Shown: positions 12,734-63,595 of the stretch, in pieces
How positions within the stretch are numbered: position 1 is the stretch's first letter
How the letters are laid out: each line of letters starts with the position of its first letter
From: an uncultured Candidatus Saccharibacteria bacterium
GTDB taxonomy: Bacteria > Patescibacteriota > Dojkabacteria > GCA-002793355
Length of the DNA stretch: 64,000 bases
Direction of reading: 5' to 3'
Assembly: GCA_964525295.1 (NCBI GenBank)
Contig: CAZGEO010000001.1
Span: 504,662-568,661, forward strand
Notes under the pieces: model-generated
Databases searched by the model: none
Told to the model about the DNA's origin: nothing
Seen by the model: the letters and a program-made list of their open reading frames with translations, nothing else
Program-made: the position numbers and the translations under genes

Positions 12734-13105
12734 ATGGCAGAAGTCGTCGAAACAAAGCCAGTTGCAACCGAATCAGCAGCATCAACTGTTGATAGCAACG
12801 CAAAATTAATGGCAGCAATTGCATGGTTCTTTGCACCAATTGCATCTGTCGTATTCATCGTTCTTGATAACTACAAGAAAGATAAATATGTTCAATTCCA
12901 TGCTTGGCAATCATTAGCATTCGGTATTGCAAACATCGTTGTTTCATTCGTTTTAGGTTGGACTTGTATTCTTCCACTTGCAATGTTTGTTGTTGCAATC
13001 GTTGGAATTATCAAGGCATTCCAAGGTGAAATGTGGAAGCTTCCAGTTATTGGTGACTGGGCAGAACAACAGGCAAATAGCACTGTTGCAAGCGCAAGCA
13101 AATAG
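12734..13105 (+). CDS. DUF4870-family small membrane protein
   Basis: Motif YVQFHAWQSLAFGI with two or three TM helices. Confidence 0.65.
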   Translation: MAEVVETKPVATESAASTVDSNAKLMAAIAWFFAPIASVVFIVLDNYKKDKYVQFHAWQSLAFGIANIVVSFVLGWTCILPLAMFVVAIVGIIKAFQGEMWKLPVIGDWAEQQANSTVASASK

Positions 13106-13139: not shown

Positions 13140-14756
13140 TTATTGTTGGTTGCGCTGCGTAGCAGCGCAACTTTCTATGGAGAGGTGGCCGAGTGGCTGA
13201 AGGCACCTCACTGCTAACGAGGCAAGGATGAAAATCCTTCCCGGGTTCGAATCCCGGCCTCTCCGCCAGTTGTTTGTTATTCGGACTTCCCGAATCTTTA
13301 TTAGTTGAGCAACCACAGGGTTGTATTCAACTCGCACAATTTGTTTATTATCAACGTAAATTCCTTCAAAAAACATTCTCAAATACTTTCTTTTTAGTGT
13401 TGCATCGGCTTTTATATAGCTTGAGAAGATATTTTCAGATAATGACAGTATGCTATCGAGAATCTTTACTTTGTCGGTATGGTCATTCTGAATACTCGCC
13501 AAATCACTCATAGCAACGGATAGCTCATCTTTTAACCTCATATAAATATCCGTAAATTCATCGCTAGATACAATCCTATCCATTCTGTCATCTTCGGCGT
13601 TTTTCATGCGTGTTTTAATCTTCGCAATCCTGTTCTTAATGATTTTTTCTTCTTCTGATTCAGTTTCTCGTACTTCTGCAAGGATTGATTTTGCGGTTTT
13701 AATAACATCTTTCTTAAAGTCTTCCGTAAACTCAATCTTCTTGAATTCTTCGGATACTAACTGCTCTAGTACTTCCATACGGACATAGTTTTTTGAGCAG
13801 TTTTTGCTCTTTTTTCTGCTTTTGCATCCAAAGTAAAAGAATTCCTGTTGTTTTCCGTTTAGGTATTTCTTGATTTTCTGCTCTCCAACAAGTCTTGAAC
13901 CACAGTTACAATAAACATGACCTCTAAGCATGAAATTATGCGTTCTATCACGAGTTCCTTTCACCTTGCGAATATCGAGTAATTGCTGAACAGTATCAAA
14001 TAACTGCTTTGTTATGATTGGTTCATGCTTTCCTTTGTGTAGTTCGCCTTTCCAGTCAAAATCTCCATAATAAATGGGGTTTCTTAACATTCGTGATACT
14101 GCACTTCTTGATATTGGTTTACTCTCTGTTGAAAGCATACCTTTCTTTTGGAGTGTTTCCGTTAAAGAGGTTATAGAATGATCACCACTTGCAAAGAGCT
14201 GAAAGGCGTATAAAACGAGTTTTGCTACATCGGGTACTGGTCTTATATATCTTTTGTGTTTCTCTCCATAATTTTCATATCCGATGGGTGCAAATGTTGG
14301 CCACCAACCATTCTTTATCTTTTGAGAAACACCTTTTTTGACTTCAAAACCGAGATTAGCAGAATAAAACTGTGCTTGAGCCGACATTATTCCCATTAAG
14401 AATTGGTCTGCTGGGTTATCATCGTTGAAATTCTCCGATACTGACATGAGTTTTACTTTTTTGTCATTGAGAATCTTCTTGATAGTCCAAAAATCAGCCA
14501 TATCACGAGATAACCTATCAGACTTATGGATAATAAGTCCATCTACTTCATGTTCTGATATAAAAGAGATCATTTCAAGAAGTGCAGGTCTATCTGCTGT
14601 TCGTGCTGATTTCCCTGCATCTTCAAATTCTTTTACGACTACATATCCGTTAGCTTTCGCAAATTCGTTACATTTTTCACGCTGAAAAGGTAGCGATAAA
14701 TCATGCTTTGCCTGTTCATCTGTGGATACTCTCGTGTATATGACTGCTGTTTTCAT
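13140..14756 (-). CDS. Large serine recombinase (resolvase/invertase N-domain + recombinase domain + zinc-ribbon); the frame continues antisense across the whole tRNA-Ser gene
   Basis: N-terminal YTRVSTDEQ with the catalytic Ser, and DRLSRD. Cys pairs lie in the C-terminal region. The last ~43 codons are the reverse complement of the tRNA. Confidence 0.8.
   Translation of the reverse strand: MKTAVIYTRVSTDEQAKHDLSLPFQREKCNEFAKANGYVVVKEFEDAGKSARTADRPALLEMISFISEHEVDGLIIHKSDRLSRDMADFWTIKKILNDKKVKLMSVSENFNDDNPADQFLMGIMSAQAQFYSANLGFEVKKGVSQKIKNGWWPTFAPIGYENYGEKHKRYIRPVPDVAKLVLYAFQLFASGDHSITSLTETLQKKGMLSTESKPISRSAVSRMLRNPIYYGDFDWKGELHKGKHEPIITKQLFDTVQQLLDIRKVKGTRDRTHNFMLRGHVYCNCGSRLVGEQKIKKYLNGKQQEFFYFGCKSRKKSKNCSKNYVRMEVLEQLVSEEFKKIEFTEDFKKDVIKTAKSILAEVRETESEEEKIIKNRIAKIKTRMKNAEDDRMDRIVSSDEFTDIYMRLKDELSVAMSDLASIQNDHTDKVKILDSILSLSENIFSSYIKADATLKRKYLRMFFEGIYVDNKQIVRVEYNPVVAQLIKIREVRITNNWRRGRDSNPGRIFILASLAVRCLQPLGHLSIESCAATQRNQQ
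13150..13176 (+). terminator. Perfect 9-bp inverted repeat TTGCGCTGC-gta-GCAGCGCAA followed by CTTTCT; possible intrinsic terminator between the DUF4870 gene and tRNA-Ser
   Basis: The palindrome is read directly in the sequence. The U tract is weak, and the hairpin also lies inside the 3' tail of the recombinase reading frame. Confidence 0.35.
13179..13268 (+). tRNA. tRNA-Ser (anticodon GCU) with long variable arm and encoded CCA
   Basis: Acceptor GGAGAGG/CCTCTCC, anticodon loop CUGCUAA (U33, GCU, A37), variable-arm hairpin AAGGATGAAAATCCTT, T-arm CCGGGTTCGAATCCCGG, discriminator G + CCA. Confidence 0.85.
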
Positions 14757-14913
14757 TTTAGGCTTTATTAGGTTTCAATTTAGCTTTTCGCATAGCTTTC
14801 ATTTCCCTTATCATGGCGTAGTAATAATCCTTTTGTGCGTTCACAAAATTTTGGATAAATAAATCGACTGGTTTTAATTTCTTTTTCATATTGTATTAGT
14901 GTTAATAAATAAA

Positions 14914-15023
14914 AAAGGGCGACTCGTTGGACACAACTCTGTATCACAGAATTGTACGAATCGCCCTTTACATCATTTAAACCTAAATGACTAAGGTCTG
15001 TGATACGATTAAGTTGTGTCCAG
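14914..15023. repeat. Two interleaved imperfect inverted repeats upstream of the recombinase gene: AAAGGGCGA/TCGCCCTTT and TTGGACACAAC..GTATCACAGA/TCTGTGATAC..GTTGTGTCCAG
   Basis: Read directly in the sequence. Candidate recombinase-binding or att-like or operator site. The 85-aa track ORF 14780..15037 here is probably spurious. Confidence 0.5.
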
Positions 15024-16001
15024 TTATATCTTACCATAGTTTTGTTTTTCTGTTAATTTTTCTACCTCCTTTTTTATAAAATTAAGTAAATTGAAGTTTT
15101 CGGCGTTCATATTGAGAAATTCTGTACTAAATCCGTTTTGCTCAAAGGTCGCATAATCAATAAAAAGAAATCTATCCTTTTGCAAAAAGTCATCTACAAC
15201 ATAATCAGACATACTGCGAATATCATCTGCCATTGTTACCCCCTTTAAAACAACATTTTTGAAGTTCATACTAGCATGACTCCAACTCCACTGACCTGTA
15301 TATTCAGGCTCAAATACAACAAGGTTTTTAAGCCTTTCTCTTGTGCTTTCGGTGATAAACAGGATATTCGGGTAAGTGTTTACTTTTTGTTGTTTGAGTT
15401 GATCAAAATATTCAAAGTATTTCATGTACTTAACCGCAACATCTTTTGAATACTCTGTTCCTCTGTCGTATTCAATCCAAAATGAAAAGACAATGTTTTC
15501 TATTTGAATTTCAACTTCTGCATCAGGCATTACATATCTTTTGATAATCCTGCCCGATGATGTGTTGCGAAACTGATATTCATACCTTGTAAAATGGTCA
15601 CCTGTAAACTTTCTTAATATTAGGTTGTGTTTTTGGCACTCCCGAAGCAAAAGCAAATACAAATTAGCGACTTTTACTGTATGCTCTAAAGCAAAGAAAT
15701 TCACACCAGTTAGCCTTTCAGGACAATTAATAGAATCCTCACTCACACCTGTACCAGTAGCCAGTTGTTTTGCCCCAAGTCGTGATAAAAATATGATTTT
15801 GGCATTGTTGGTATAGTAGGTCGTTCTAATTAATCCATGCTCCCTTAATCTGTTTACTGTTCTACTAACTGCTTGATAACTTCCGTATAACTTCTTCTCC
15901 AATAAAATCTTAGTCAAAACTTGAAGCGGTAAAAATCTAAAACTATTAACTATCCCTAATATCTGAATATCATTGTACTTTGCAATATAACTTTCTTTCA
16001 T
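15024..16001 (-). CDS. Replication-relaxation family protein (plasmid-type, wHTH N-terminus)
   Basis: N-terminal wHTH (LTKILLEKKLYGSYQAVSRTVNRLREHGLIRT) and a PDAEVEI...FWIEYDRGTE motif typical of the Replication-relaxation family. Confidence 0.55.
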   Translation of the reverse strand: MKESYIAKYNDIQILGIVNSFRFLPLQVLTKILLEKKLYGSYQAVSRTVNRLREHGLIRTTYYTNNAKIIFLSRLGAKQLATGTGVSEDSINCPERLTGVNFFALEHTVKVANLYLLLLRECQKHNLILRKFTGDHFTRYEYQFRNTSSGRIIKRYVMPDAEVEIQIENIVFSFWIEYDRGTEYSKDVAVKYMKYFEYFDQLKQQKVNTYPNILFITESTRERLKNLVVFEPEYTGQWSWSHASMNFKNVVLKGVTMADDIRSMSDYVVDDFLQKDRFLFIDYATFEQNGFSTEFLNMNAENFNLLNFIKKEVEKLTEKQNYGKI

Positions 16002-16033
16002 AATAAAAATAACTAAAAAATTAAATAAAAAAG

Positions 16034-16196
16034 TAAGGTCTGTCGATCACACACTTTTCACAGAACTTAATGTGTAACACACACACATTAATCGTTGTCG
16101 AGGGAGTGATTGGGTGGAAGGCATTAGGAAACGCAGTTTCGCCTTCCACCCAATCAGTCACGAGGTTCTGTAAAAGTGCGACAGACCGTAACTTTC
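16034..16196. repeat. Nested inverted-repeat (cruciform-capable) region: outer arms GGTCTGTCG..CACTTTTCACAGAAC / GTTCTGTAAAAGTGCGACAGACC, palindrome TTAATGTGT-aacac-ACACATTAA, inner perfect 13-bp IR TTGGGTGGAAGGC / GCCTTCCACCCAA
   Basis: Read directly in the sequence. It is located just downstream of the Rep-like gene inside the element. Candidate element origin, oriT or a structured RNA. Confidence 0.55.
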
Positions 16197-16286
16197 GTGT
16201 TTGACAACATGGTGAGAAACTGGATTCATAGAAACGCCCTTTTCGGTAGGATACATTCAACATTTAATCAATCATGGTTTTCATAG

Positions 16287-17075
16287 TTAAAATTTAGATT
16301 TTTCTAAGAATTTAGCTCTCATTGTTTCAAGTTTTGACAGTTGCTCTTTGCGTTTTCGTTTCTCCTGTAAATCTTTGAGAGTTTTAACAAACAACCCTGC
16401 TGGGTTTGAGAGTGGTTTTGTTCCATCAACTTGAGCAGTGCGAATTTGAGTTCTTGTGAAAATTAAAGCATCTGTAACATCATCGGAATTAACAATTCCT
16501 TTGTTCTTTTGGCTGATTAGCTTTTGGTAGTATTTAATGCTTTTAAGGTAGTTTAGCTCTTTAGCGATTTCTACTGCTTCTTCTGAAAAAGATTTAAAAT
16601 CATCGTTTAACGTTAACTTATTATTTTTAATCTTTTCTTCTTCAACTTTATATTCTTTGTAGGTCAAATTTGACTCACCTTGATGTGTCAATTCTGAAAC
16701 ATCTGGTTGTTGCAATTCTGACACATCCGCAAGACTATCGAGTTTTTCAGCATATATTTCTGATATTGGCTCAAGAATATACAAGTTTGTTTTATTAAGT
16801 CCTCTTGTTTTCCAAGACATAAGCCCACGACTTCTAAGCTCATCTAATCCTCTAAATATTGAACTTCTACTTTTACCGATTGTTTCTGCTAGTTTATTTT
16901 GTCCTGGAAAACAATAATTTTTGTTCATAGCGTATTTGAGAAGTGCCAAATATACTCTAACTGCAAGATCTGAAAGCAATCTATCTTCTGTTATTAAATG
17001 ACTAATTTGAGCAAATCCGTATTGCTTTTCAAAATCTCGAAATATTACTTTGTCTTGCTTATCGGTCATTTTCAT
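16287..17075 (-). CDS. HTH-domain replication-initiator-like protein (DnaD/replisome-organizer-like N-terminus)
   Basis: The N-terminal VYLALLKYAMNKN...NKLAETIGKSRSSIFRGLDELRSRGLM resembles Rep/DnaD-type wHTH. The C-terminus is charged. Confidence 0.45.
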   Translation of the reverse strand: MKMTDKQDKVIFRDFEKQYGFAQISHLITEDRLLSDLAVRVYLALLKYAMNKNYCFPGQNKLAETIGKSRSSIFRGLDELRSRGLMSWKTRGLNKTNLYILEPISEIYAEKLDSLADVSELQQPDVSELTHQGESNLTYKEYKVEEEKIKNNKLTLNDDFKSFSEEAVEIAKELNYLKSIKYYQKLISQKNKGIVNSDDVTDALIFTRTQIRTAQVDGTKPLSNPAGLFVKTLKDLQEKRKRKEQLSKLETMRAKFLEKSKF

Positions 17076-17254
17076 GTACTTTTCGTTTTTGTAAATAACT
17101 TGCTTTTTCGAAGTAGCTCAATTGCTGATTTAGACTTCTCCTGCTTTCCAATTAATCGGCTATAACCTAATTGTTCAAAACAAAGCAAAACCCATTCACG
17201 AATGAATAGTTCTCTTGCGGTCATAGGTTTTGTTTTTTGTTTCTCTTTTGCCAT
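17072..17254 (-). CDS. Small basic hypothetical protein (60 aa), translationally coupled (ATGA overlap) to the downstream Rep-like gene
   Basis: 4-nt start/stop overlap with 16287..17075. Confidence 0.4.
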   Translation of the reverse strand: MAKEKQKTKPMTARELFIREWVLLCFEQLGYSRLIGKQEKSKSAIELLRKSKLFTKTKST

Positions 17255-17257
17255 TTT

Positions 17258-17335
17258 TAAAACAAAAAAAGAGGTCTAAATCAAAAAGGCTGTAAGCGTT
17301 ACGCTTAACAAATGACCTTTAAGACTTAGACCTCT
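17258..17335 (-). terminator. Intrinsic terminator: 10-bp perfect stem AGAGGTCTAA/TTAGACCTCT (with inner GCGTAACGC hairpin) followed on the minus strand by U7-rich tract
   Basis: Plus-strand aacaaaaaaagaggtctaa...ttagacctct, downstream of gene 17384..17599. Confidence 0.5.
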
Positions 17336-17383
17336 CTACAACTCAACTAAGGGTAGCTGAGGGCTAATATCTAAATTATTTAC

Positions 17384-17599
17384 TTATTGTTTCGTTTTTC
17401 TTTTACCTGTTTTTATATGTAATATCGTGCTATCAATTCTTTTGTTTGATATTTTAATTTCGTAAGTTCCAAATTCAAATTTTACGAATTCTTCAATGAT
17501 TTTCTTGAGATCTTCCAAGTGGATATTATAGATTTCAGGGCTTTGTAATAGCTCAAGAAATTGTTTTTTGAGTTCAAGTGATATTTTAGATTGTGTCAT
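17384..17599 (-). CDS. Hypothetical small protein (71 aa)
   Basis: 14-nt overlap with the upstream ORF and the same orientation as the element genes. Confidence 0.4.
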   Translation of the reverse strand: MTQSKISLELKKQFLELLQSPEIYNIHLEDLKKIIEEFVKFEFGTYEIKISNKRIDSTILHIKTGKRKTKQ

Positions 17600-18365
17600 A
17601 TGAGATATTTTTGTCTAATAAATCTAAATAATCCGTACTATCGCTATCTGTTTTCATAGCGTAATTCTTGTAAATCATTAACGGCTCTAAATACTCAATA
17701 CTTGATACTCCATCAACTATTGAAACTCGTTTAAAACCCTCTTGTTTGAGGTACTCGTTATCAGTACGAAGTACTGAAAAGATATTTGCTTCTTGAGTTG
17801 TTAAGTTCTTTTTAGGGATTAAAACAACATAGAATGGGTCAAGTTTTGAGTGGTAATAGTCAAATATTGTAAGTTTCCAACATGGAATTGAGACTTTTTG
17901 AGTGTATACAGTCATTTCTTCAATAACTGGGAGGGCTACAAACAGCTTTTTATTAAGTCTGAGGTTGTATAGGACTCTTTCTTCCATTGGAGTATTTTCA
18001 ACTGGTTTTGGTGGCAATTGGCTTGAAAAATAGTTATATACATGGATTCGTATTTCATCATGTTTATATCCTCGTTTAAATAATTGGTGAATGTACCATA
18101 TCATCATTGGTACTTTAATTTTGTGATAGCCTACTGTACCACCAAGAGCAGAGGTTAAGCCCATTTTCTTTGCAGAGGGAAGAAAGCTATGTCGGGAGTA
18201 GTAAATGAGTTTCTTTCTATCACATTCAATGTTCCAAGAGCTTTTTATGATTAAATCGACAACTGTATCTGAGGATAGATCGTATCTATTTGTTGTATCG
18301 GAGACTAAACCCCATTCATACATTTGTTTTACGAAGTTACTAATTGTTTTATCTAAGATATTCAT
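17586..18365 (-). CDS. Hypothetical protein (259 aa), element-encoded
   Basis: Long ORF with no recognisable motif. Confidence 0.5.
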   Translation of the reverse strand: MNILDKTISNFVKQMYEWGLVSDTTNRYDLSSDTVVDLIIKSSWNIECDRKKLIYYSRHSFLPSAKKMGLTSALGGTVGYHKIKVPMMIWYIHQLFKRGYKHDEIRIHVYNYFSSQLPPKPVENTPMEERVLYNLRLNKKLFVALPVIEEMTVYTQKVSIPCWKLTIFDYYHSKLDPFYVVLIPKKNLTTQEANIFSVLRTDNEYLKQEGFKRVSIVDGVSSIEYLEPLMIYKNYAMKTDSDSTDYLDLLDKNISYDTI

Positions 18366-18580
18366 AGTATCGAGTTAAATATATCAATGTTTGTCACTAT
18401 ACTAATATATACCACTCAAAATAGTTTGTCAATAAATTTGCTATGTTTTACACTCAAGCTCAAAACTAAGAAACTAAGTATAAATTTAAAGCTTCGCTTT
18501 CTTATTATAATGTCGTTTCAGGTAAAATTGGGTAATGTATAAGCCGATTTAATACGGGAATAATTAATTATTAAAACAAA

Positions 18581-19657
18581 ATGAATGAAGCTGTAAATAA
18601 GTATCTTGAGGAAGTACAAAGCAAGTTTAAAACTGGACACGCTAGAGAACACGCCTATCACCCAGCGTTACAAAAACTTATTGAAGATATTAATAGCTCA
18701 ATCAATGCGGTAAATGACCCAAAACAACAAAAGGTCGGTGCTCCTGATTTTGTTTTACTAAAAAGTAAAACACCTATCGGCTATGTAGAAGCAAAAGACA
18801 TAGATATTGCACTTGATAAAGAATTTAAAACAAAGAATCAATTTAACAGATATAAAGCCTCACTCAATAACTTGTGTTTTACGAATTATCTCGACTTTCA
18901 CTTTTACCTAAATGGTGAAGAAGTAGCAAAAGTTGCTATCGGAAAACTGGAAAATAACAAAATCGAAGTTTTACCAGATAATATTCCACTGCTTGAAAGC
19001 TTACTCAAGAATTTTACAACACAGAAATCTATTTCTATCAGAAGCCCGAAAGAACTTGCTTCTCTTATGGCTGAAAAAGCAAAGATGCTTAAGAATGTTG
19101 TTTATTTGTCATTAAAAGAAGAATCAGAAGTTAAAGGACAAGTTGAACAACAATACCAAGTGTTTAAGCAAATGCTTATTCATGACTTATCACTTGAACA
19201 ATACGCTGATTTATACGCTCAGACTGTTGCTTACGGAATGTTTGCGACTAGATACTACGACCCTTCTTTGGAGAACTTTAATAGAGGTGAAGCAAACAAG
19301 CTTTTGCCAAAGTCAAACCTTTTTTTGCAGAACTTCTTGAAAACTATGGAAAAGATACAAAACGAAGTGATGTCATTGTTCCTTTTACGAAACTTTCTTG
19401 GCAGAATATGACCCTAAAATGCGTAAATCAAGAGGTGTTTACTATACTCCTGAACCAGTAGTTGATTTTATCGTAAGGGCTGTTGATGACATTTTGAAAA
19501 CCTAGTTTGGAATTACTGACGAATTAGCAGATATAAGCAAGATTGAAGTTGAAAAAGAGTTACAGGGTAATAAGAAGAAGCAGAAAGTAACGGAACACAG
19601 TATTCAAGTTCTTGATCCTGCGACTGGGACAGGTATATTCCGAAATCTTGCCACCCT
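18581..19657 (+). pseudogene. N-terminal remnant (~330 aa equivalent) of a Type IIG restriction-modification / BREX PglX-like N6-adenine DNA methyltransferase; frameshift near 19395-19411, in-frame TAG at 19507-19509, truncated right after motif I
   Basis: ORF 18581..19411, then in the +1 frame YDPKMRKSRGVYYTPEPVVDFIVRAV, then TAG, then ...HSIQVLDPATGTGIF (motif I). This runs in frame into the RibB-like/E1-alpha gene, and no catalytic NPPY/DPPY region follows. Confidence 0.6.
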
Positions 19658-19682
19658 ATCTGTGTTGAGTTATACTTATGTT

Positions 19683-21269
19683 ATGTCAGAACAGATAAAA
19701 CGTATTGTTAAATCAGGCAATCCCTTTCTTATTTATCATAATTCTGAAAATGAGACGGCGTTAGTGATTCCTGCAGAATTCATGACTGAAGCAAAATATA
19801 GATTATTTCGAGAATATGCAACCTCTGATGTCGCAATGATGTTTCCTGTAGACATTGCAGAAAGTCTTGGAATCGAGTACATCTCAGACGCACTATTTCT
19901 TAGTGCAGAATACGATTCAATTGTAGATAGTGCAGTAAGAAAATCTCACGCTGGACCAACCCTCGATTTAAAAAGTGTTGAAACAGGAAGTGCTGATGCG
20001 GACAAGGTCAAGACAATAACAAGATTTGCAGAAGTTATATCTTCTCAGAACTTCACAGATTTTTTCAATGAATTCTCAATACCAGGGCATGTTAGAACTT
20101 ATCTTGCCGACCAAGATTTATTAGATGGGCGTAGTGGTCACACTGAGTTAGGTGTATACTTGTCACTTTACACACAGCTTTCAGGTGTCGTATGTATGGT
20201 GACTATTAGAGATAAGGTAACTGGAAAACCATTCAACCTTATTGAGTCGGAGCGTTTTGCAGAAAAAAATAATTACACAATCTTCTATGAGAATGATATT
20301 TTAGACCTATATAGACGGGAGTTTTTACCTTACTGTAAAGCGTCGTTTGAGCAAAAGCAAAACAAGATTATTGAAGATTATAGAAAACTACTAGATATCA
20401 GAAAGTTTGAACAAACCTTAGAAAAGTTGTTTAAAAGTCAAAAAATTCGAGGTTCCTATCATTTAGCCATTGGACAAGAGGCAACAGGAGTGGCTTTAGG
20501 TAAAGTCATTAGCTTGAAAGAAGGAGATAGCGCATTTGTAACACATAGGGGACATCATATTGCTCTCGGTTTAGGGTTAAATAGTCGAGATTTTTTCTTT
20601 GAATGTATTGGAAGTGAACAAGGTCTAAACAACGGGAGATCTGGTCCTATGCACTTTTTTTACAAGCCTAATGGATTAATAAGCGCGAATGGTATTGTAG
20701 CTGCAAATGCACCTATTGCTGCAGGTCTTGCACTGTCAAACAAGCTTAAAAATAATAATAACGTAGTTGTTAATGTTGTAGGAGAAGGCTCCTTAGATGA
20801 AGGAGTCGTGCATGAAACATTGACAGATATGAAAATATGGGGAATTCCATTGATAATACTATGTGAAAATAATTTTTATTCTCAGTCTACGGTAATTGAA
20901 AAACATTTGCCATATGAGAGAGTCACAACAGCGATGCGACAGTTTTACGGCATCAAAGTAGAAAGAATCGAAAATGGTACCGATTTAATTCATTTACAAA
21001 AAAGGCTTAATCATATTGTAGGATGGGTAAGAAAAAATAAAATGCCGGTTTTTGTTGAAATTCAAACATATCGCCAATGTGGACATTCGATGAGTGATAC
21101 TGAGCAAAGTTATATGGATCCGAGTTTAGATTCTGCTTGGCTTAGAAAAGACCCGGTAAGCTTATTGAAACAGTATATTTTAAATCATAATCTTTCAAAT
21201 AACGCTGCTTTAGAAAAGATAGAATCAGAAGTTATAGAATTTTATATGAATCTAGAAACACAAGTATGA
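19683..21269 (+). CDS. Fusion protein: degenerate RibB-like (3,4-dihydroxy-2-butanone-4-phosphate synthase-like) N-domain + TPP-dependent 2-oxoacid dehydrogenase E1 alpha subunit
   Basis: The N-terminal ~200 aa align to RibB (PGHVRTYLADQDLLDGRSGHTE) but the acidic DDEDRENEGD motif is replaced by YHNSENETAL. The C-terminal E1-alpha has YHLAIGQEA, GSEQGLNNGRSGPMH and a TPP motif GEGSLDEG...ENNFY. The likely leaderless start is ATG 19683 (TATACT 6 nt upstream); the track start is 19662. Confidence 0.7.
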   Translation: MSEQIKRIVKSGNPFLIYHNSENETALVIPAEFMTEAKYRLFREYATSDVAMMFPVDIAESLGIEYISDALFLSAEYDSIVDSAVRKSHAGPTLDLKSVETGSADADKVKTITRFAEVISSQNFTDFFNEFSIPGHVRTYLADQDLLDGRSGHTELGVYLSLYTQLSGVVCMVTIRDKVTGKPFNLIESERFAEKNNYTIFYENDILDLYRREFLPYCKASFEQKQNKIIEDYRKLLDIRKFEQTLEKLFKSQKIRGSYHLAIGQEATGVALGKVISLKEGDSAFVTHRGHHIALGLGLNSRDFFFECIGSEQGLNNGRSGPMHFFYKPNGLISANGIVAANAPIAAGLALSNKLKNNNNVVVNVVGEGSLDEGVVHETLTDMKIWGIPLIILCENNFYSQSTVIEKHLPYERVTTAMRQFYGIKVERIENGTDLIHLQKRLNHIVGWVRKNKMPVFVEIQTYRQCGHSMSDTEQSYMDPSLDSAWLRKDPVSLLKQYILNHNLSNNAALEKIESEVIEFYMNLETQV

Positions 21270-22195
21270 AATATTTAGATGCTATCACGAGCTGTTTAAA
21301 GTTTGAACTATCAAAAGAGAATTTATATATTCTTGGACAGGATTTACTCAATTGGAAGGGGCGGGGTCGCTTCTTACATTCATTAATAACTGATTATAGT
21401 GACAAGATAATTGATACTCCAATTTCTGAATCCGCAACTTCAGGAATCGCAACCGGTTTAGCACTGGGAGGATTCAGAGTTATGGTGGAATATGCATTTT
21501 TAGATTTTATATTACATAGTACGGATCAAATAGTTAACAATTCGACTAAGCTTCAATTCTTTGCGGGTTCAAAACACGCCATAAATCTACCAATCGTCTA
21601 TTACTCAACGATTAATTCTGCTATGGGATATGGAGCAACTCATTCACAACCATTGGAGTATCTTTTCTGTAATATTCCTAATTTATTAACAGTTTATCCT
21701 TCCAATAGTACGGATGCTCAGTCTCTATTAAAGGAGGCTCTGAATGCCTCTTCGCCTACCCTTTTTATAAATCATAAACTACTCCACGATACTGAGGACG
21801 ATTTACCCGTAATAGATGCCGGTAAGGCACGAGTTTTTTCTCAAACTAATGATAAGTCGGAAAAGATTGTAATTGTAACTTATGGAAGATCTACTCAATT
21901 GGTTCGAGAAATTTTGACTCAACTTCCAGAACCAGTATATCATGTGGATTTAAGATATCTATCGAAATTTGATTATCAATCAATCCTTCATCCTGCAAGA
22001 AAAATAGTATTTGTAGAGGAAGGTTCTGGTGTGATTATGAAACAGCTTATTGCTGATTTAGTAACCTATTACAACTTAACCTCGAAAGATATCAGATTGA
22101 TAAGCTCAAAAGCTATGCAAATTGGTGCCGGAAGAGCACATGAAGAAATGGTCTTTGTTTCAAAGTCTGATATTTTAGATGCAATACAGTCCTAA
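21266..22195 (+). CDS. TPP-dependent dehydrogenase E1 beta subunit / transketolase-like pyrimidine-binding + C-terminal domains (divergent)
   Basis: 4-nt overlap with E1-alpha and an E1-beta-like layout (TPISESATSGIATGLALGGFRVMVEY). No E2/E3 is nearby. Confidence 0.65.
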   Translation: MKYLDAITSCLKFELSKENLYILGQDLLNWKGRGRFLHSLITDYSDKIIDTPISESATSGIATGLALGGFRVMVEYAFLDFILHSTDQIVNNSTKLQFFAGSKHAINLPIVYYSTINSAMGYGATHSQPLEYLFCNIPNLLTVYPSNSTDAQSLLKEALNASSPTLFINHKLLHDTEDDLPVIDAGKARVFSQTNDKSEKIVIVTYGRSTQLVREILTQLPEPVYHVDLRYLSKFDYQSILHPARKIVFVEEGSGVIMKQLIADLVTYYNLTSKDIRLISSKAMQIGAGRAHEEMVFVSKSDILDAIQS

Positions 22196-22399
22196 GAGGC
22201 TTTATTTTTGACGCTGTTTCAGAGCATTCGAACTTAATTAATCAACCCTAGAATAATGGCCACAGATCTACTTGTATTTAAGCTCGTCGATTAGCGTTAA
22301 TGTTTTGCCTTTTCCTGGGCCAAATTGCACAGGGGATGGAGGAATCTTCCTTAATAGTTCTACCAAGAATAAGAGTGCGAATAAGCGACCTCATCGTCC

Positions 22400-22514
22400 G
22401 TTTTTACAAAAATTCTCTCCTTCCTTACAAAAAAGAAAATTCTTTCTTTTTTGTTACAGTCAGGATCCGAATTTTGTAAAAATCGGTATTAAGGAGGGAG
22501 TTTTTGTAAAAAAG
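22400..22514. repeat. Array of four palindromic TTTTTGTAAAAA / TTTTTACAAAAA motifs inside a 520-bp non-coding region
   Basis: gtttttacaaaaa (22400), ttacaaaaaag (22425), attttgtaaaaa (22471), tttttgtaaaaaa (22501). Confidence 0.5.
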
Positions 22515-22713
22515 GAAAATGGTTGTTGGGATTTGAAACTTGAGGAGAACATGACCAACGTCATGTTTGACGAGAGCGGGGCTGCGCCTAACAACATTTA
22601 GAGTATATATGTGCATTTTCAGTGATGAAGAATGAATCCTGAAAATGTTGGGTAGCCGAATCCCGGCATGATGCATTCTTTGTTTCAATAAAACTGTAGT
22701 AAAATTCACTATT

Positions 22714-57726: not shown

Positions 57727-57846
57727 GATAAAGCATGAGGGAGGTAAAGAATTAAAGCAGTAAAACGGTAAAACACGGAAGCACTAGAGCATTAAAGCAT
57801 TAGAGTACTAAAGCGCTAAAGCAAGAAAGTAGGAAAGTTATAAAGC
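57727..57846. repeat. Octanucleotide tandem array (about 15 x NNTAAAGC-like units); its 3' end is the left boundary of the 5079-bp tandem duplication
   Basis: ...ggtaaaga attaaagc agtaaaac ggtaaaac acggaagc actagagc attaaagc attagagt actaaagc gctaaagc aagaaagt aggaaagt tataaagc. Confidence 0.7.
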
Positions 57847-57847
57847 G

Positions 57848-57876
57848 CAAAAAAATTAATGCTTTATCGCATTAAT
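57848..57876 (-). terminator. Intrinsic terminator of the nth-like gene: ATTAATGC-loop-GCATTAAT hairpin overlapping the stop codon, followed by U7 on the minus strand
   Basis: Plus strand gcgcAAAAAAATTAATGCtttatcGCATTAAT. An identical copy lies at 62927..62955. Confidence 0.5.
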
Positions 57877-58516
57877 CTGCTACCTTGTACTTGTTGAGAA
57901 TATTGTTTGGGTCTTTCATCTGAATGTGATTCGACAAGTGTTGTCCAACAAGCACGAGAATGCGGTTCGTTTTGATCCATAATTCTTTTGGAAGTTTCTT
58001 GCGTAAGGCAAATTCTGTTTGTTCAGGAGTTTTGGTTGTAACGTACCCAATATGATTCATGATGCGATGCACGTGAGTGTCAACACAAATTGCAGGAATG
58101 TCAAAAACTACCGATTGCACAAGATTTGCAGTTTTACGACCAACACCAGGGAGTTCGAGTAGCTGTTCCATTTCGCTAGGTACATTTCCTTGATATTTTT
58201 CGATGAGTATCGAAGAAAGTTCTTTGAGGTGCTTTGCTTTTGTCGTGTAAAAGTTGATAGGTCGGAGCAATTGTGCAAGCCTATCGATTGGTATTGCCAT
58301 CATTTTTTCGGGGGTACTTGCTTCTTGCCACAATCCAGGCATACGTGTATTCGTTAAGCTGTCTTTGGTTCTTGCAGAAAGTACTATCGAAACCAAGGTA
58401 AAAAAAGGTGATTTGTAGGTTTCATGAACTGCTTCTGCGAATGAAAGCGGCGCTTCAATCGATTGCAATTCTTTTTCAAGAGCTTCGTAAAATTCGGCTA
58501 TAGAAACAGTATTCAT
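57872..58516 (-). CDS. nth: Endonuclease III-like HhH-GPD DNA glycosylase/lyase lacking the C-terminal [4Fe-4S] Cys cluster (copy 1)
   Basis: HhH-GPD LLELPGVGRKTANLV with the catalytic Lys, VDTHVHRI with Asp, and no C-x6-C-x2-C-x5-C at the C-terminus. Confidence 0.75.
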   Translation of the reverse strand: MNTVSIAEFYEALEKELQSIEAPLSFAEAVHETYKSPFFTLVSIVLSARTKDSLTNTRMPGLWQEASTPEKMMAIPIDRLAQLLRPINFYTTKAKHLKELSSILIEKYQGNVPSEMEQLLELPGVGRKTANLVQSVVFDIPAICVDTHVHRIMNHIGYVTTKTPEQTEFALRKKLPKELWIKTNRILVLVGQHLSNHIQMKDPNNILNKYKVAD

Positions 58517-62885: not shown

Positions 62886-62925
62886 AGTAAAGCGCTAAAG
62901 CAAGAAAGTAGGAAAGTTATAAAGC
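62886..62925. repeat. Octanucleotide array (5 units), second copy at the duplication junction
   Basis: agtaaagc gctaaagc aagaaagt aggaaagt tataaagc, identical to 57807-57846 except for the first unit. Confidence 0.7.
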
Positions 62926-62950
62926 GCAAAAAAATTAATGCTTTATCGCA

Positions 62951-63595
62951 TTAATCTGCTACCTTGTACTTGTTGAGAATATTGTTTGGGTCTTTCATCT
63001 GAATGTGATTCGACAAGTGTTGTCCAACAAGCACGAGAATGCGGTTCGTTTTGATCCATAATTCTTTTGGAAGTTTCTTGCGTAAGGCAAATTCTGTTTG
63101 TTCAGGAGTTTTGGTTGTAACGTACCCAATATGATTCATGATGCGATGCACGTGAGTGTCAACACAAATTGCAGGAATGTCAAAAACTACCGATTGCACA
63201 AGATTTGCAGTTTTACGACCAACACCAGGGAGTTCGAGTAGCTGTTCCATTTCGCTAGGTACATTTCCTTGATATTTTTCGATGAGTATCGAAGAAAGTT
63301 CTTTGAGGTGCTTTGCTTTTGTCGTGTAAAAGTTGATAGGTCGGAGCAATTGTGCAAGCCTATCGATTGGTATTGCCATCATTTTTTCGGGGGTACTTGC
63401 TTCTTGCCACAATCCAGGCATACGTGTATTCGTTAAGCTGTCTTTGGTTCTTGCAGAAAGTACTATCGAAACCAAGGTAAAAAAAGGTGATTTGTAGGTT
63501 TCATGAACTGCTTCTGCGAATGAAAGCGGCGCTTCAATCGATTGCAATTCTTTTTCAAGAGCTTCGTAAAATTCGGCTATAGAAACAGTATTCAT
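62951..63595 (-). CDS. nth: Endonuclease III-like HhH-GPD glycosylase (copy 2, identical to 57872..58516)
   Basis: The 214-aa translation is identical. Confidence 0.75.
   Translation of the reverse strand: MNTVSIAEFYEALEKELQSIEAPLSFAEAVHETYKSPFFTLVSIVLSARTKDSLTNTRMPGLWQEASTPEKMMAIPIDRLAQLLRPINFYTTKAKHLKELSSILIEKYQGNVPSEMEQLLELPGVGRKTANLVQSVVFDIPAICVDTHVHRIMNHIGYVTTKTPEQTEFALRKKLPKELWIKTNRILVLVGQHLSNHIQMKDPNNILNKYKVAD

What the first reader, a model, noticed from the sequence alone, without database searches (positions are those of the whole stretch)
18581..19700. Dead Type IIG/PglX-like adenine methyltransferase N-terminus fused in frame to a metabolic gene
Frame 1 (18581-19411) encodes the N-terminal target-recognition-like region. 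After a +1 shift the sequence reads YDPKMRKSRGVYYTPEPVVDFIV (the GxYYTP motif), then TAG, then the SAM-binding motif I VLDPATGTGIF. Fifteen codons later, in the same frame, it runs into MSEQ..., the start of the RibB-like/E1-alpha protein. Motif IV (NPPY/DPPY) and all downstream domains are missing. This is a breakpoint, either an element boundary or a deletion, that cut a restriction-modification or BREX-type gene, with the metabolic gene starting exactly at the scar.
Basis: partly seen in the sequence, partly recalled or inferred. Interest (0 to 1): 0.6.

Follow-up and report, generated by a model that had tools for sequence, protein, structure and literature searches.

The report
Decayed restriction enzyme gene at mobile-element edge
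This is the broken first third of a combined restriction-and-methylation enzyme gene, carried in by a small mobile element that inserted next to a tRNA gene in a tiny-genome (Dojkabacteria-like) bacterium and later lost its far end by deletion; this is ordinary gene decay, and the neighbouring metabolic gene is intact and not truly fused to it.

Summary
The sequence observation is real. 18581-19640 is the 5' third of a Type IIG/IIL restriction-modification gene (PADLOC REase_MTase_IIG, E 1.4e-87; closest homolog 79% identical). It carries four lesions: a net 97-nt loss at about 19326/19327, a 1-nt deletion at 19381/19382, a GAA/GAG->TAG nonsense codon at 19503-19505, and complete loss of homology after 19639/19640, just past SAM motif I. 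Two separate read-set assemblies reproduce all of this exactly.

The N-terminal ORF is the PD-(D/E)xK nuclease domain plus helical spacer, not a target-recognition region. The enzyme is not PglX/BREX-like. The "in-frame fusion" has no functional meaning: the DHBP-synthase-like/E1-alpha gene starts at its native ATG (19683), as in its 526-535-aa relatives.

The remnant is cargo of a roughly 7-kb integrative, probably mobilizable, element (serine recombinase, Replic_Relax, HTH_36) inserted at the 3' end of tRNA-Ser(GCT). That slot lies between chromosomal genes that are also neighbours in distant relatives. Related copies keep both att cores (CCGCCAGTT); this one keeps only attL. The best explanation is therefore a deletion that removed about 620 codons and attR, leaving the element unable to excise. 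This is an ordinary decayed gene of low interest.

The parts
12734..13105 (+). PF09685 (DUF4870/MamF_MmsF) membrane-protein gene, the conserved chromosomal left neighbour of the insertion slot.
   Evidence: Weak Pfam hit (E 1.4e-4, 22.2 bits, below the 25-bit cutoff). The same family is called in the same slot upstream of the fusion gene in relatives L013 and L011. The gene is on the same 659-kb NCBI contig.
13179..13268 (+). tRNA-Ser(GCT), the integration target of the element.
   Evidence: ARAGORN. Related element copies abut tRNA-Ser(GGA) in L018 and a tRNA 3' end in L005.
13262..13271 (+). attL core TCCGCCAGTT, spanning the last bases of the tRNA and the first bases of the element. It is the only copy in the window.
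   Evidence: Core search. Homology to L017 starts at 13263. There is no second copy of the tRNA 3' end in the window.
13140..14756 (-). Large serine recombinase (538 aa), apparently intact. Its ORF reads across attL into the tRNA on the opposite strand.
   Evidence: Pfam Resolvase + Recombinase + Zn_ribbon_recom. NCBIfam CcrB/XisF-like hits below cutoff. Its >=90%-identity cluster has 11 members.
15024..16001 (-). Replic_Relax (PF13814) protein, a candidate MobC-type relaxase of the element backbone.
   Evidence: Pfam E 5.8e-10. PF13814 is classed as a MobC relaxase of integrative mobilizable elements in PMC5357655. Its cluster has 14 members.
16287..17075 (-). HTH_36 DNA-binding protein of the backbone, possibly a replication or regulatory protein.
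   Evidence: Pfam E 5.4e-12. It is syntenic with L005.
17586..18365 (-). Conserved 259-aa backbone protein of unknown function, the last backbone gene before the cargo slot.
   Evidence: No Pfam hit. Its >=90%-identity cluster has 30 members. Homologous in L005, L016, L017 and L018.
18466..18580 (+). Start of the cargo region. Backbone homology to L016 and L017 ends at about 18459-18465. This stretch is the upstream region of the RM remnant.
   Evidence: blastn end points and side-by-side sequences. Logan contigs of both runs begin nearby, at 18388.
18581..19326 (+). Authentic 5' part of the Type IIG/IIL RM gene (about 246-248 codons): PD-(D/E)xK nuclease domain (motif at 18740-18799) and most of the helical spacer. 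The annotated 276-aa ORF continues out of frame to TGA 19409-19411.
   Evidence: It is 85% identical in protein (208/246) to the L005 homolog.
19326..19327 (+). Lesion 1: net loss of 97 nt (32 codons + 1 nt; homologs have ...PFLRNFFQTIAGYNIDDRIVWIVDDLAELFNHVNVRE... here). The ends lie in short similar sequences, so the exact position is ambiguous by a few nt.
   Evidence: DNA alignment A1, columns 98-194; protein alignment.
19333..19380 (+). 16 authentic codons (LLENYGKDTKRSDVIV) in a third reading frame, between lesions 1 and 2.
19381..19382 (+). Lesion 2: 1-nt deletion inside the conserved His codon (CAC -> C-C), the second frameshift.
   Evidence: Alignment A1, column 250; sequence check.
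19383..19640 (+).
   Evidence: It is 91% identical in protein (92/101) to L005. Aligns to DrdV 7LO5 and to LlaGI/LlaBIII.
19503..19505 (+). Lesion 3: nonsense codon TAG, where all homologs have Glu (GAA/GAG).
   Evidence: Alignment A1.
19639..19640 (+). Lesion 4, the scar. Homology to every homolog (L004, L005, L006, L007) stops here. About 620 codons (motif IV NPPY, the rest of the MTase, the Type_ISP_C specificity domain) and the element's attR are missing.
   Evidence: blastn end points at 19639 (L004-L006) and 19635 (L007); alignment A1; tblastn of C-terminal parts finds nothing elsewhere; no second att core.
19641..19682 (+). 42-nt spacer between the scar and the start of the next gene. 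It contains a sigma-70-like match, TTGCCA-17-TATACT (19648-19676). It is stop-free in the remnant's frame by coincidence.
   Evidence: The number of promoter matches in the region is not above the shuffled expectation (6 versus 5.9), so this is only a lead.
19683..21269 (+). Intact chromosomal gene: a DHBP_synthase-like domain fused to a TPP-dependent E1-alpha (528 aa). It is the right-hand neighbour of the slot, not part of the remnant.
   Evidence: Pfam/NCBIfam. Relatives are 526-535 aa and start at the same aligned position. Synteny in L011 and L013.
21266..22195 (+). E1-beta (transketolase-like) partner gene, overlapping the fusion gene's stop codon.
   Evidence: Pfam/NCBIfam. The same pair occurs in all related loci.

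Best explanation
Window 18581-19640 is a non-functional fossil of a single-polypeptide Type IIG/IIL restriction-modification enzyme. In homologs the layout is N-terminal PD-(D/E)xK nuclease, helical spacer, gamma-class N6-adenine methyltransferase, then a C-terminal Type_ISP_C specificity domain, about 1000 aa in total.

The gene arrived as the cargo of a small integrative, probably mobilizable, element. The element backbone (about 13263-18465) encodes a large serine recombinase, a Replic_Relax/MobC-type protein, an HTH_36 protein and a conserved 259-aa protein. The recombinase inserted the element at the 3' end of tRNA-Ser(GCT), at the core CCGCCAGTT, in a Dojkabacteria-like (CPR) chromosome. 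The insertion lies between a PF09685 membrane-protein gene and a DHBP-synthase-like/E1-alpha operon that are also neighbours in distant relatives.

Afterwards the RM gene decayed through a net 97-nt loss, a 1-nt deletion and a Glu->TAG mutation. A larger deletion removed its last roughly 620 codons together with the element's right attachment site, ending 43 nt upstream of the intact host gene. Without attR the element can no longer excise.

Shown here: family identity, the four lesions, their reproducibility in two assemblies, the element backbone and attL, attL plus attR in a related copy, slot synteny, and intactness of the downstream gene.

Inferred: that the terminal lesion was a deletion after integration, the order of events, loss of mobility, and that the spacer supplies the downstream gene's promoter.
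For: 1. Family: PADLOC REase_MTase_IIG PDLC03610, E 1.4e-87, from profile position 2 of 1096. There are 2368 homologs, the best at 79%, 72% and 71% identity. PDB best hits are DrdV 7LO5, LlaGI and LlaBIII. Homolog domains are HSDR_N-like, N6_Mtase/MmeI_Mtase/Eco57I and Type_ISP_C. The domain order is as published for MmeI (PMC4833311).
2. Lesions: mapped on DNA alignment A1 and the protein alignment. The missing part is absent from the whole window.
3. Not an error: two Logan assemblies are identical over 2.2-12.9 kb.
4. Cargo of an element: L005 has the same order, recombinase, Replic_Relax, HTH_36, 259-aa gene, (HTH_3, ApbA), then an undisrupted RM gene that runs to the contig end (512 aa), at 65-88% nt identity. 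L016 and L017 match the backbone at 88-90% only up to about 18459-18465. Cargo differs between copies: an ABC transporter in L017 and an unknown 608-aa protein in L018.
5. att sites: the core sits at the tRNA 3' end in the window, L018 and L005. L018 has a second core 7.1 kb away, just after its cargo gene. L017 has cargo, core, then backbone. The window has a single core.
6. Insertion into a conserved slot: L013 has PF09685, tRNA, 0.5 kb, then the fusion gene. L011 has the same flanks around other DNA.
7. Downstream gene intact: relatives are 526-535 aa with aligned N-termini.
8. Host: all named MetRS hits are Candidatus Dojkabacteria.
9. Recent decay: lineage-specific changes are 41 synonymous to 31 nonsynonymous, against 34:16, 28:16 and 21:18 in homolog lineages.
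Against: - No close relative with an empty site or with an intact RM-carrying copy including attR was recovered. The amount of DNA lost and the post-integration timing of the deletion are therefore inferred.
- L005, the best comparator, ends at a contig edge inside the RM gene.
- L017's reading as a circular attP form is not proven.
- Large serine recombinases do not need long att identity, so absence of a recognisable core at 19640 is strong but not absolute evidence that attR is gone.
- The two Logan assemblies may derive from the same reads as the NCBI assembly, so they exclude assembler error but not systematic read error. A G->T nonsense change and a 97-nt loss are, however, not typical read errors.
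- Both Logan contigs start at 18388, which shows some ambiguity in the assembly graph just left of the remnant.
Confidence: 0.8

Rival explanations
1. The truncation predates integration. The circulating element already carried only the 5' third of the RM gene next to its attP, and 19640 is the true recombination junction (attR), formed at a non-canonical or degenerate site.
For: The cargo slot lies directly before the att core in L017 and L018, so the last cargo gene is expected to sit at the junction. Serine recombinases need only a short crossover identity (established knowledge). There is a weak 10/12 similarity, TTCC(C)GAA(A)TCTT, between 13288-13300 and 19638-19649 (sequence).
Against: The conserved core CCGCCAGTT, present at attL here and at both ends of the L018 copy and in L017, is absent at 19640; the best local alignment has about 5 mismatches in 10. 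By my estimate a 10/12 match is expected about 0.5 times by chance in windows of this size. The break falls in the middle of a conserved domain, right after motif I, with no arm-like sequence before it.
Confidence: 0.1
2. The remnant has been put to use. The 276-aa ORF (nuclease domain plus spacer) is still made and does something, or the remnant DNA now serves as the promoter or 5' region of the E1-alpha operon.
For: 246 codons remain open in 32-36% GC DNA, and lineage-specific changes are not strongly relaxed (41 synonymous to 31 nonsynonymous). The PD...EAK motif is intact. A promoter-like match lies at 19648-19676, and another at 19612-19639 inside the remnant.
Against: In this family the nuclease has no DNA recognition of its own and acts as part of the full enzyme (PMC4833311). 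The ORF's last roughly 28-30 residues are frameshifted read-through. The exact 276-aa ORF was found only in this genome's own assemblies. Promoter-like matches are at the shuffled expectation. The low nonsynonymous-to-synonymous ratio is equally explained by recent inactivation.
Confidence: 0.08
3. Sequencing or assembly artefact: the real genome has an intact long RM gene, or the junction at 19640 is chimeric.
For: Two of the lesions lie at or near T runs (19320-19326 and 19383-19386), and Logan contigs break nearby at 18388.
Against: Two separately assembled runs reproduce every lesion and span the junction. The 97-nt loss and the G->T nonsense change are not homopolymer errors. The C-terminal two-thirds is absent from the window, and the next gene starts 43 nt after the break. 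Genes on both sides are on one 659-kb NCBI contig.
Confidence: 0.02
4. It is a remnant of a BREX PglX methyltransferase rather than of a restriction enzyme.
For: PglX and Type IIG/IIL enzymes share the gamma-class MTase and related specificity domains (10.1101/2024.04.12.589305 appears; the relationship is stated from general knowledge).
Against: No PglX model appears at E<=1e-3 in PADLOC, while four Type IIG models (PDLC03610, PDLC03631, PDLC03597, PDLC03621) hit the repaired remnant, with E-values from 1.4e-87 to 6.4e-8. An N-terminal PD-(D/E)xK nuclease domain is present. In L005, L006 and L004 the gene is a lone cargo or island gene without brx/pglZ partners. No such genes flank it here.
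Confidence: 0.02

Closest known systems
MmeI / DrdV-type Type IIL (Type IIG) bifunctional restriction-modification enzymes
   Same: The domain order matches in the retained part: PD-(D/E)xK nuclease, helical spacer, then a gamma-class N6-adenine MTase beginning ...YDPK..RGVYYTP... and motif I DPATGTG. The best PDB sequence match is DrdV 7LO5. Homologs hit Pfam MmeI_Mtase and Eco57I.
   Different: Only about the first 385 of roughly 1000 codons survive, with two frameshifts and a stop. Sequence similarity to MmeI/DrdV themselves is limited to the MTase N-terminal motifs (E 2e-5). In homologs the specificity domain is of the Type_ISP_C kind rather than the MmeI TRD Pfam family.
Type ISP enzymes LlaGI / LlaBIII
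   Same: Homologs share the C-terminal Type_ISP_C specificity domain (E 8.5e-69) and the MTase motif region.
   Different: There is no helicase-like ATPase motor domain between nuclease and MTase. Homologs are about 1000 aa, against 1400-1600 aa for Type ISP enzymes.
BREX PglX (BrxX) methyltransferase
   Same: Related gamma-class adenine MTase core.
   Different: It has an N-terminal nuclease domain, gives no PglX profile hit, and has no BREX partner genes (and neighbourhood).
Integrative and mobilizable elements (IMEs) with a serine recombinase and a PF13814/MobC-type relaxase, as catalogued in streptococci (PMC5357655); also tRNA-targeting genomic islands
   Same: Small size (about 7 kb in L018), a site-specific recombinase at one end, a Replic_Relax protein, no conjugation pore genes, an insertion site at a tRNA 3' end that regenerates the tRNA, and a variable cargo module.
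   Different: The host is a CPR (Dojkabacteria-like) bacterium. No DNA or protein match was found among 72,556 annotated plasmids. Relaxase activity and transfer are untested. This copy lacks attR.

Membership tests
Type IIG/IIL bifunctional RM enzymes (MmeI/DrdV-like) | Significant match to family profiles and to homologs along the N-terminal region. | tested here: met
   PADLOC PDLC03610, E 1.4e-87, from profile position 2. Homologs reach 79% identity.
Type IIG/IIL bifunctional RM enzymes (MmeI/DrdV-like) | N-terminal PD-(D/E)xK endonuclease motif. | tested here: met
   APDFVLL...GYVEAKD at 18740-18799, conserved in L004, L005 and L006. The HSDR_N hit is weak (E 6e-4, below the Pfam cutoff).
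Type IIG/IIL bifunctional RM enzymes (MmeI/DrdV-like) | Gamma-class MTase with SAM motif I and catalytic motif IV (NPPY). | tested here: not met
   Motif I is present (19608-19640). Motif IV is absent from the window, whereas homologs have GNPPYS/GNPPYA.
Type IIG/IIL bifunctional RM enzymes (MmeI/DrdV-like) | C-terminal target recognition domain in the same polypeptide. | tested here: not met
   Type_ISP_C is present in the L006 homolog and absent from the window.
Type IIG/IIL bifunctional RM enzymes (MmeI/DrdV-like) | One uninterrupted ORF of about 900-1100 codons. | tested here: not met
   Two frameshifts, one nonsense codon and truncation at about codon 385. It is therefore a pseudogene derived from the family, not a functional member.
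BREX PglX | Match to PglX/BrxX profiles and adjacency to brxA/B/C, pglZ and brxL. | tested here: not met
   No PglX model at E<=1e-3. Neighbours here and in the homolog loci are unrelated.
Integrative mobilizable element (IME) | Own site-specific recombinase. | tested here: met
   538-aa large serine recombinase with Resolvase + Recombinase + Zn_ribbon_recom domains.
Integrative mobilizable element (IME) | Relaxase or mobilization protein, without a conjugation pore. | tested here: inconclusive
   Replic_Relax PF13814, E 5.8e-10, classed as MobC relaxase in PMC5357655. No oriT or activity was tested. No T4SS-like genes occur in the 6.4 kb.
Integrative mobilizable element (IME) | Bounded by attL and attR sharing a core. 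| tested here: not met
   The window has the core only at 13262-13271. The related copy L018 has both, 7.1 kb apart. The window copy is therefore a truncated, probably immobile derivative.
Integrative mobilizable element (IME) | Presence or absence polymorphism at a conserved chromosomal site. | tested here: inconclusive
   The slot between the PF09685 gene/tRNA and the fusion gene is short in L013 and holds other DNA in L011. These relatives are only about 53% identical and have tRNA-Pro there. No near-identical empty site was found.

The most novel reading that the evidence does not exclude
The remnant is a marker for an apparently undescribed family of roughly 7-kb serine-recombinase elements. 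These elements target the 3' ends of tRNA genes (tRNA-Ser in the two copies where the tRNA could be identified), share the core CCGCCAGTT, and circulate at >=90% protein identity among many metagenomes, probably in Dojkabacteria/CPR bacteria. They have one cargo slot that carries either a defence gene (a Type IIG RM enzyme) or other genes (an ABC transporter, ApbA). That would make them a simple vehicle for gene exchange in bacteria with tiny genomes that are thought to rely on RM systems for defence. The window copy would be a fossil fixed in place by loss of attR.
Probability: 0.4. Interest if true: 0.45.

Novelty: new member of a known kind. Interest (0 to 1): 0.22.

Why it matters
The finding itself is routine genome decay: a restriction-modification gene brought in by a mobile element and then lost. 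Its practical value is for annotation. The 276-aa 'hypothetical protein' should be marked as a pseudogene fragment, and the E1-alpha fusion gene should start at ATG 19683, not at GTG 19662.

There is modest wider interest. CPR bacteria rarely have CRISPR and are thought to depend on compact RM systems (PMC6509639). This locus shows one route by which such a system arrives, on a small tRNA-targeting element, and how quickly it can be lost. The comparison also defines the att core and the cargo slot of an element family that could be surveyed across CPR genomes.

Tried and rejected
1. A genome-contig scan with the fusion protein, meant to find the same locus in close relatives, returned only distant E1-alpha genes at 30-32% identity. 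No empty-site comparator was obtained.
2. The exact-sequence lookups reported the element's minus-strand genes as 'not in the collection'. This was my coordinate error: I trimmed the Met codon instead of the stop. Corrected, all are on the 659-kb NCBI contig. An early idea that the window is chimeric at 18388 was dropped.
3. Pairwise dN/dS was uninformative because synonymous sites are saturated. The first run also had an off-by-one bug in the post-deletion segment. It was replaced by lineage-specific counts.
4. A short similarity, TTCC(C)GAA(A)TCTT, near attL and at the scar was considered as an att repeat and rejected as chance-level. The real core, CCGCCAGTT, was identified from L017 and L018 instead.
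5. PglX/BREX membership was rejected.
6. Plasmid database searches with the backbone DNA and the Replic_Relax protein gave no match.
7. Many homologs end at 618-620 aa, which suggested a naturally split gene. In L007 the ORF stops where a repeat begins near the contig end, so I treat these as assembly or insertion breaks. This is not resolved.
8. P0004, which looked like a relative's copy of the remnant, is the window's own ORF.
9. Literature searches found no description of this element family in CPR bacteria. The library is incomplete, so this is not proof of novelty.


Full report
**Observation**

- An ATG-initiated ORF runs 18581-19411 (276 aa).
- In another frame the sequence reads YDPKMRKSRGVYYTPEPVVDFIV (19407-19475).
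- A TAG lies at 19503-19505.
- The SAM-binding motif I, VLDPATGTGIF, lies at 19608-19640.
- Fourteen further codons (19641-19682) lead in the same frame to ATG 19683 (MSEQIK...).

Logan assemblies of two separate sequencing runs (SRR11582162 and SRR11582163) are base-for-base identical to the window from 18388 onward, with 0 mismatches over 2.2 to 12.9 kb. The frameshifts, the stop and the junction are therefore not products of one assembler.

**What the remnant is**

A conceptual repair of the three frames finds 2368 homologs. The best are 79%, 72% and 71% identical. It hits the PADLOC Type IIG restriction enzyme-methyltransferase model PDLC03610 (1096 positions) at E 1.4e-87, starting at profile position 2. 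No PglX/BREX model appears.

The best solved relatives by sequence are DrdV (7LO5, Type IIL) and the Type ISP enzymes LlaGI and LlaBIII, all through the MTase N-terminal motifs.

Homologs have this domain order:
- an HSDR_N-like nuclease region (residues about 49-116);
- N6_Mtase/MmeI_Mtase/Eco57I (about 370-590);
- in L006, a C-terminal Type_ISP_C specificity domain (E 8.5e-69).

The L006 gene spans 3013 nt, about 1004 codons. This is the MmeI layout: PD-(D/E)XK nuclease 1-155, helical spacer 156-300, MTase 301-620, then the TRD (PMC4833311).

The recognition domain is among the parts that are lost.

**Lesions**

DNA and protein alignments with L004, L005 and L006 show four independent defects.
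1. A net loss of 97 nt at about 19326/19327. This removes 32 codons (homologs read ...PFLRNFFQTIAGYNIDDRIVWIVDDLAELFNHVNVRE...) plus one base.
2. A 1-nt deletion in a conserved His codon at 19381/19382.
3. GAA/GAG (Glu) changed to TAG at 19503-19505.
4. Complete loss of homology after 19639/19640, immediately after the GTG of motif I.

Sixteen authentic codons (19333-19380) sit in a third frame between them.

tblastn with homolog C-terminal parts finds nothing else in the 64-kb window. About 620 codons, including NPPY and the specificity domain, are truly absent.

The surviving codons are still 85% (N-terminal part) and 91% (MTase start) identical to the L005 protein. Lineage-specific changes are 41 synonymous to 31 nonsynonymous, against 34:16, 28:16 and 21:18 in the homolog lineages. 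That is at most mild relaxation, so the decay is probably recent relative to the divergence among these copies. This last step is inference.

**Context: cargo of an integrated element**

Upstream of the remnant lie, in order:
- tRNA-Ser(GCT), 13179-13268;
- a 538-aa large serine recombinase, 13140-14756, minus strand;
- a Replic_Relax protein, 15024-16001;
- an HTH_36 protein, 16287-17075;
- small ORFs;
- a 259-aa protein, 17586-18365.

The contig encoding the closest RM homolog (L005) has the same order, followed by HTH_3 and ApbA genes and an RM gene that is undisrupted as far as the contig runs (512 aa), at 65-88% nt identity.

Backbone proteins belong to >=90%-identity clusters with 11-30 members from NCBI, JGI, ENA and Logan samples. 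PF13814 proteins are classed as MobC-type relaxases of integrative mobilizable elements (PMC5357655).

L016 and L017 match the window at 88-90% from 13263 to about 18459-18465 and then diverge. This defines a conserved backbone followed by a variable cargo slot. L017 carries an ABC transporter, L018 an unknown 608-aa protein, and L005 carries HTH_3 + ApbA + the RM gene.

No annotated plasmid resembles the backbone.

**Attachment sites**

In the window, L018 and L005 the element's recombinase end abuts the 3' end of a tRNA, with the shared core (T/C)CCGCCAGTT. The tRNA is tRNA-Ser(GCT) in the window and tRNA-Ser(GGA) in L018; in L005 only the tRNA's 3' end lies on the contig, so its identity is unknown.
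- In L018 a second core lies 7.1 kb away, 124 nt after its single cargo gene. L018 therefore has both attL and attR.
- In L017 a cargo ORF is followed by the core and then the backbone, as expected for an attP-type junction.
- The window has the core once, at 13262-13271, and no second copy of the tRNA 3' end.

**The slot is chromosomal**

The gene to the right (19683-21269) encodes a DHBP_synthase-like domain fused to a TPP-dependent E1-alpha. An E1-beta gene follows.

Its roughly ten relatives (52-56% identity) are 526-535 aa, and their N-termini align with the Met at 19683. The gene is therefore complete, and the GTG at 19662 is not its start.

In relative L013 the order is LexA, PF09685 gene, tRNA, about 0.5 kb, then the fusion gene. 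In L011 the same flanks hold about 9 kb of unrelated DNA. The window has the same PF09685 gene at 12734-13105.

Genes on both sides of the element are on one 659-kb NCBI contig.

All named MetRS relatives are Candidatus Dojkabacteria at 51-56% identity. The host is thus a divergent CPR bacterium.

**Best explanation**

An element of this family carrying a Type IIG/IIL RM gene integrated at tRNA-Ser. The RM gene then accumulated small lesions. A deletion running from about codon 385 through attR stopped 43 nt before the host operon's start codon, leaving the element unable to excise. Selection to keep the downstream operon and its promoter would account for where the deletion ends (inference).

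A sigma-70-like match, TTGCCA-17-TATACT, sits at 19648-19676, but the number of such matches in the region is no greater than in shuffled sequence.

The shared reading frame between remnant and host gene has no consequence. By my rough estimate it has a chance probability of about 0.1 (one in three for the frame, times about one in three for 14 stop-free codons at this base composition).

**Rivals**

- *Truncation before integration, with 19640 as a true attR.* This is disfavoured by the absence of the conserved core.
- *Retained function of the 276-aa ORF, or promoter donation.* This cannot be excluded but has no positive support.
- *Sequencing or assembly error.* This is contradicted by two assemblies and by the nature of the lesions.
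- *PglX/BREX origin.* This fails the profile and neighbourhood tests.

**Verdict**

This is a correctly spotted but ordinary pseudogene: a decayed restriction-modification gene at the eroded edge of a small integrated mobile element. The more interesting by-product is the element family itself, with its att core, its tRNA 3'-end target and its single cargo slot. I did not find it described in the searchable literature.

Noticed in passing
window 19683-22195: The 'metabolic gene' is itself unusual. A DHBP_synthase (RibB)-like domain is fused to a TPP-dependent E1-alpha, followed by E1-beta. Only about ten relatives were found, all Dojkabacteria-like and 526-535 aa. The RibB acidic loop reads YHNSENETA here and YHNDEDE(M/T)A in relatives. 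All NCBIfam scores are far below the equivalog cutoffs, so its function is unknown.
   Followed up: partly
window 13140-13271: The serine recombinase ORF reads across the attL core and through tRNA-Ser on the opposite strand. Members of its >=90% cluster range from 506 to 538 aa, so the C-terminal tail appears to depend on what lies beyond the att site, that is, on integration state.
   Followed up: no
window 18388 (Logan contigs L001 and L002): Contigs from both runs start at exactly 18388, close to the backbone/cargo border (about 18465). The other end of the 39-kb contig stops 30 nt into a perfect repeat, so the break at 18388 probably marks a second variant or copy of the element in the sample. 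This was not verified.
   Followed up: partly
window 57809-58108 and 62888-63187: A perfect 300-nt direct repeat 5 kb apart, overlapping the ends of two 214-aa ORFs (57872-58516 and 62951-63595, both minus strand).
   Followed up: no
window 36641, 42405, 45230, 46278, 46339, 51271, 52952, 61034 (about 31 nt each): An AT-rich intergenic motif (ATTGATAATTGAAGATTGATAATTAACAATT and variants) recurs at least 7 times in both orientations between genes. It could be a regulatory or terminator-like repeat.
   Followed up: no
homologs P0018, P0039, P0086 and many others; L007 7860-8052: None of the 120 best RM homologs exceeds 620 aa, and many end at the same alignment position (...GVSINIFVK), at the border between the MTase and the specificity domain. 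In L007 the ORF stops where a repetitive sequence begins near the contig end. These may be assembly breaks at a hypervariable specificity domain, or recurrent disruption.
   Followed up: partly
L011 1317-9757 versus L013 9323-10000: The slot between the PF09685 gene/tRNA and the fusion gene is variable in other Dojkabacteria-like genomes too. L011 holds about 9 kb there, including an ART-PolyVal-domain protein and large surface-type proteins.
   Followed up: no
L004 10001-11845 and L006 1980-4992: The two next-closest RM homologs are themselves interrupted: P0002 has a frameshifted tail, and L006 is split into 422 + 32 + 553 aa. Both come from low-coverage assemblies (coverage about 2-2.7), so it is unclear whether these are errors or further independent decay of this RM family.
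   Followed up: no
window 22272-22601: The E1-beta/NUDIX intergenic region contains a 31-nt inverted repeat (22392-22422 / 22491-22521, 84% complementary) and only weak ORFs. It may be a structured RNA or a terminator.
   Followed up: no
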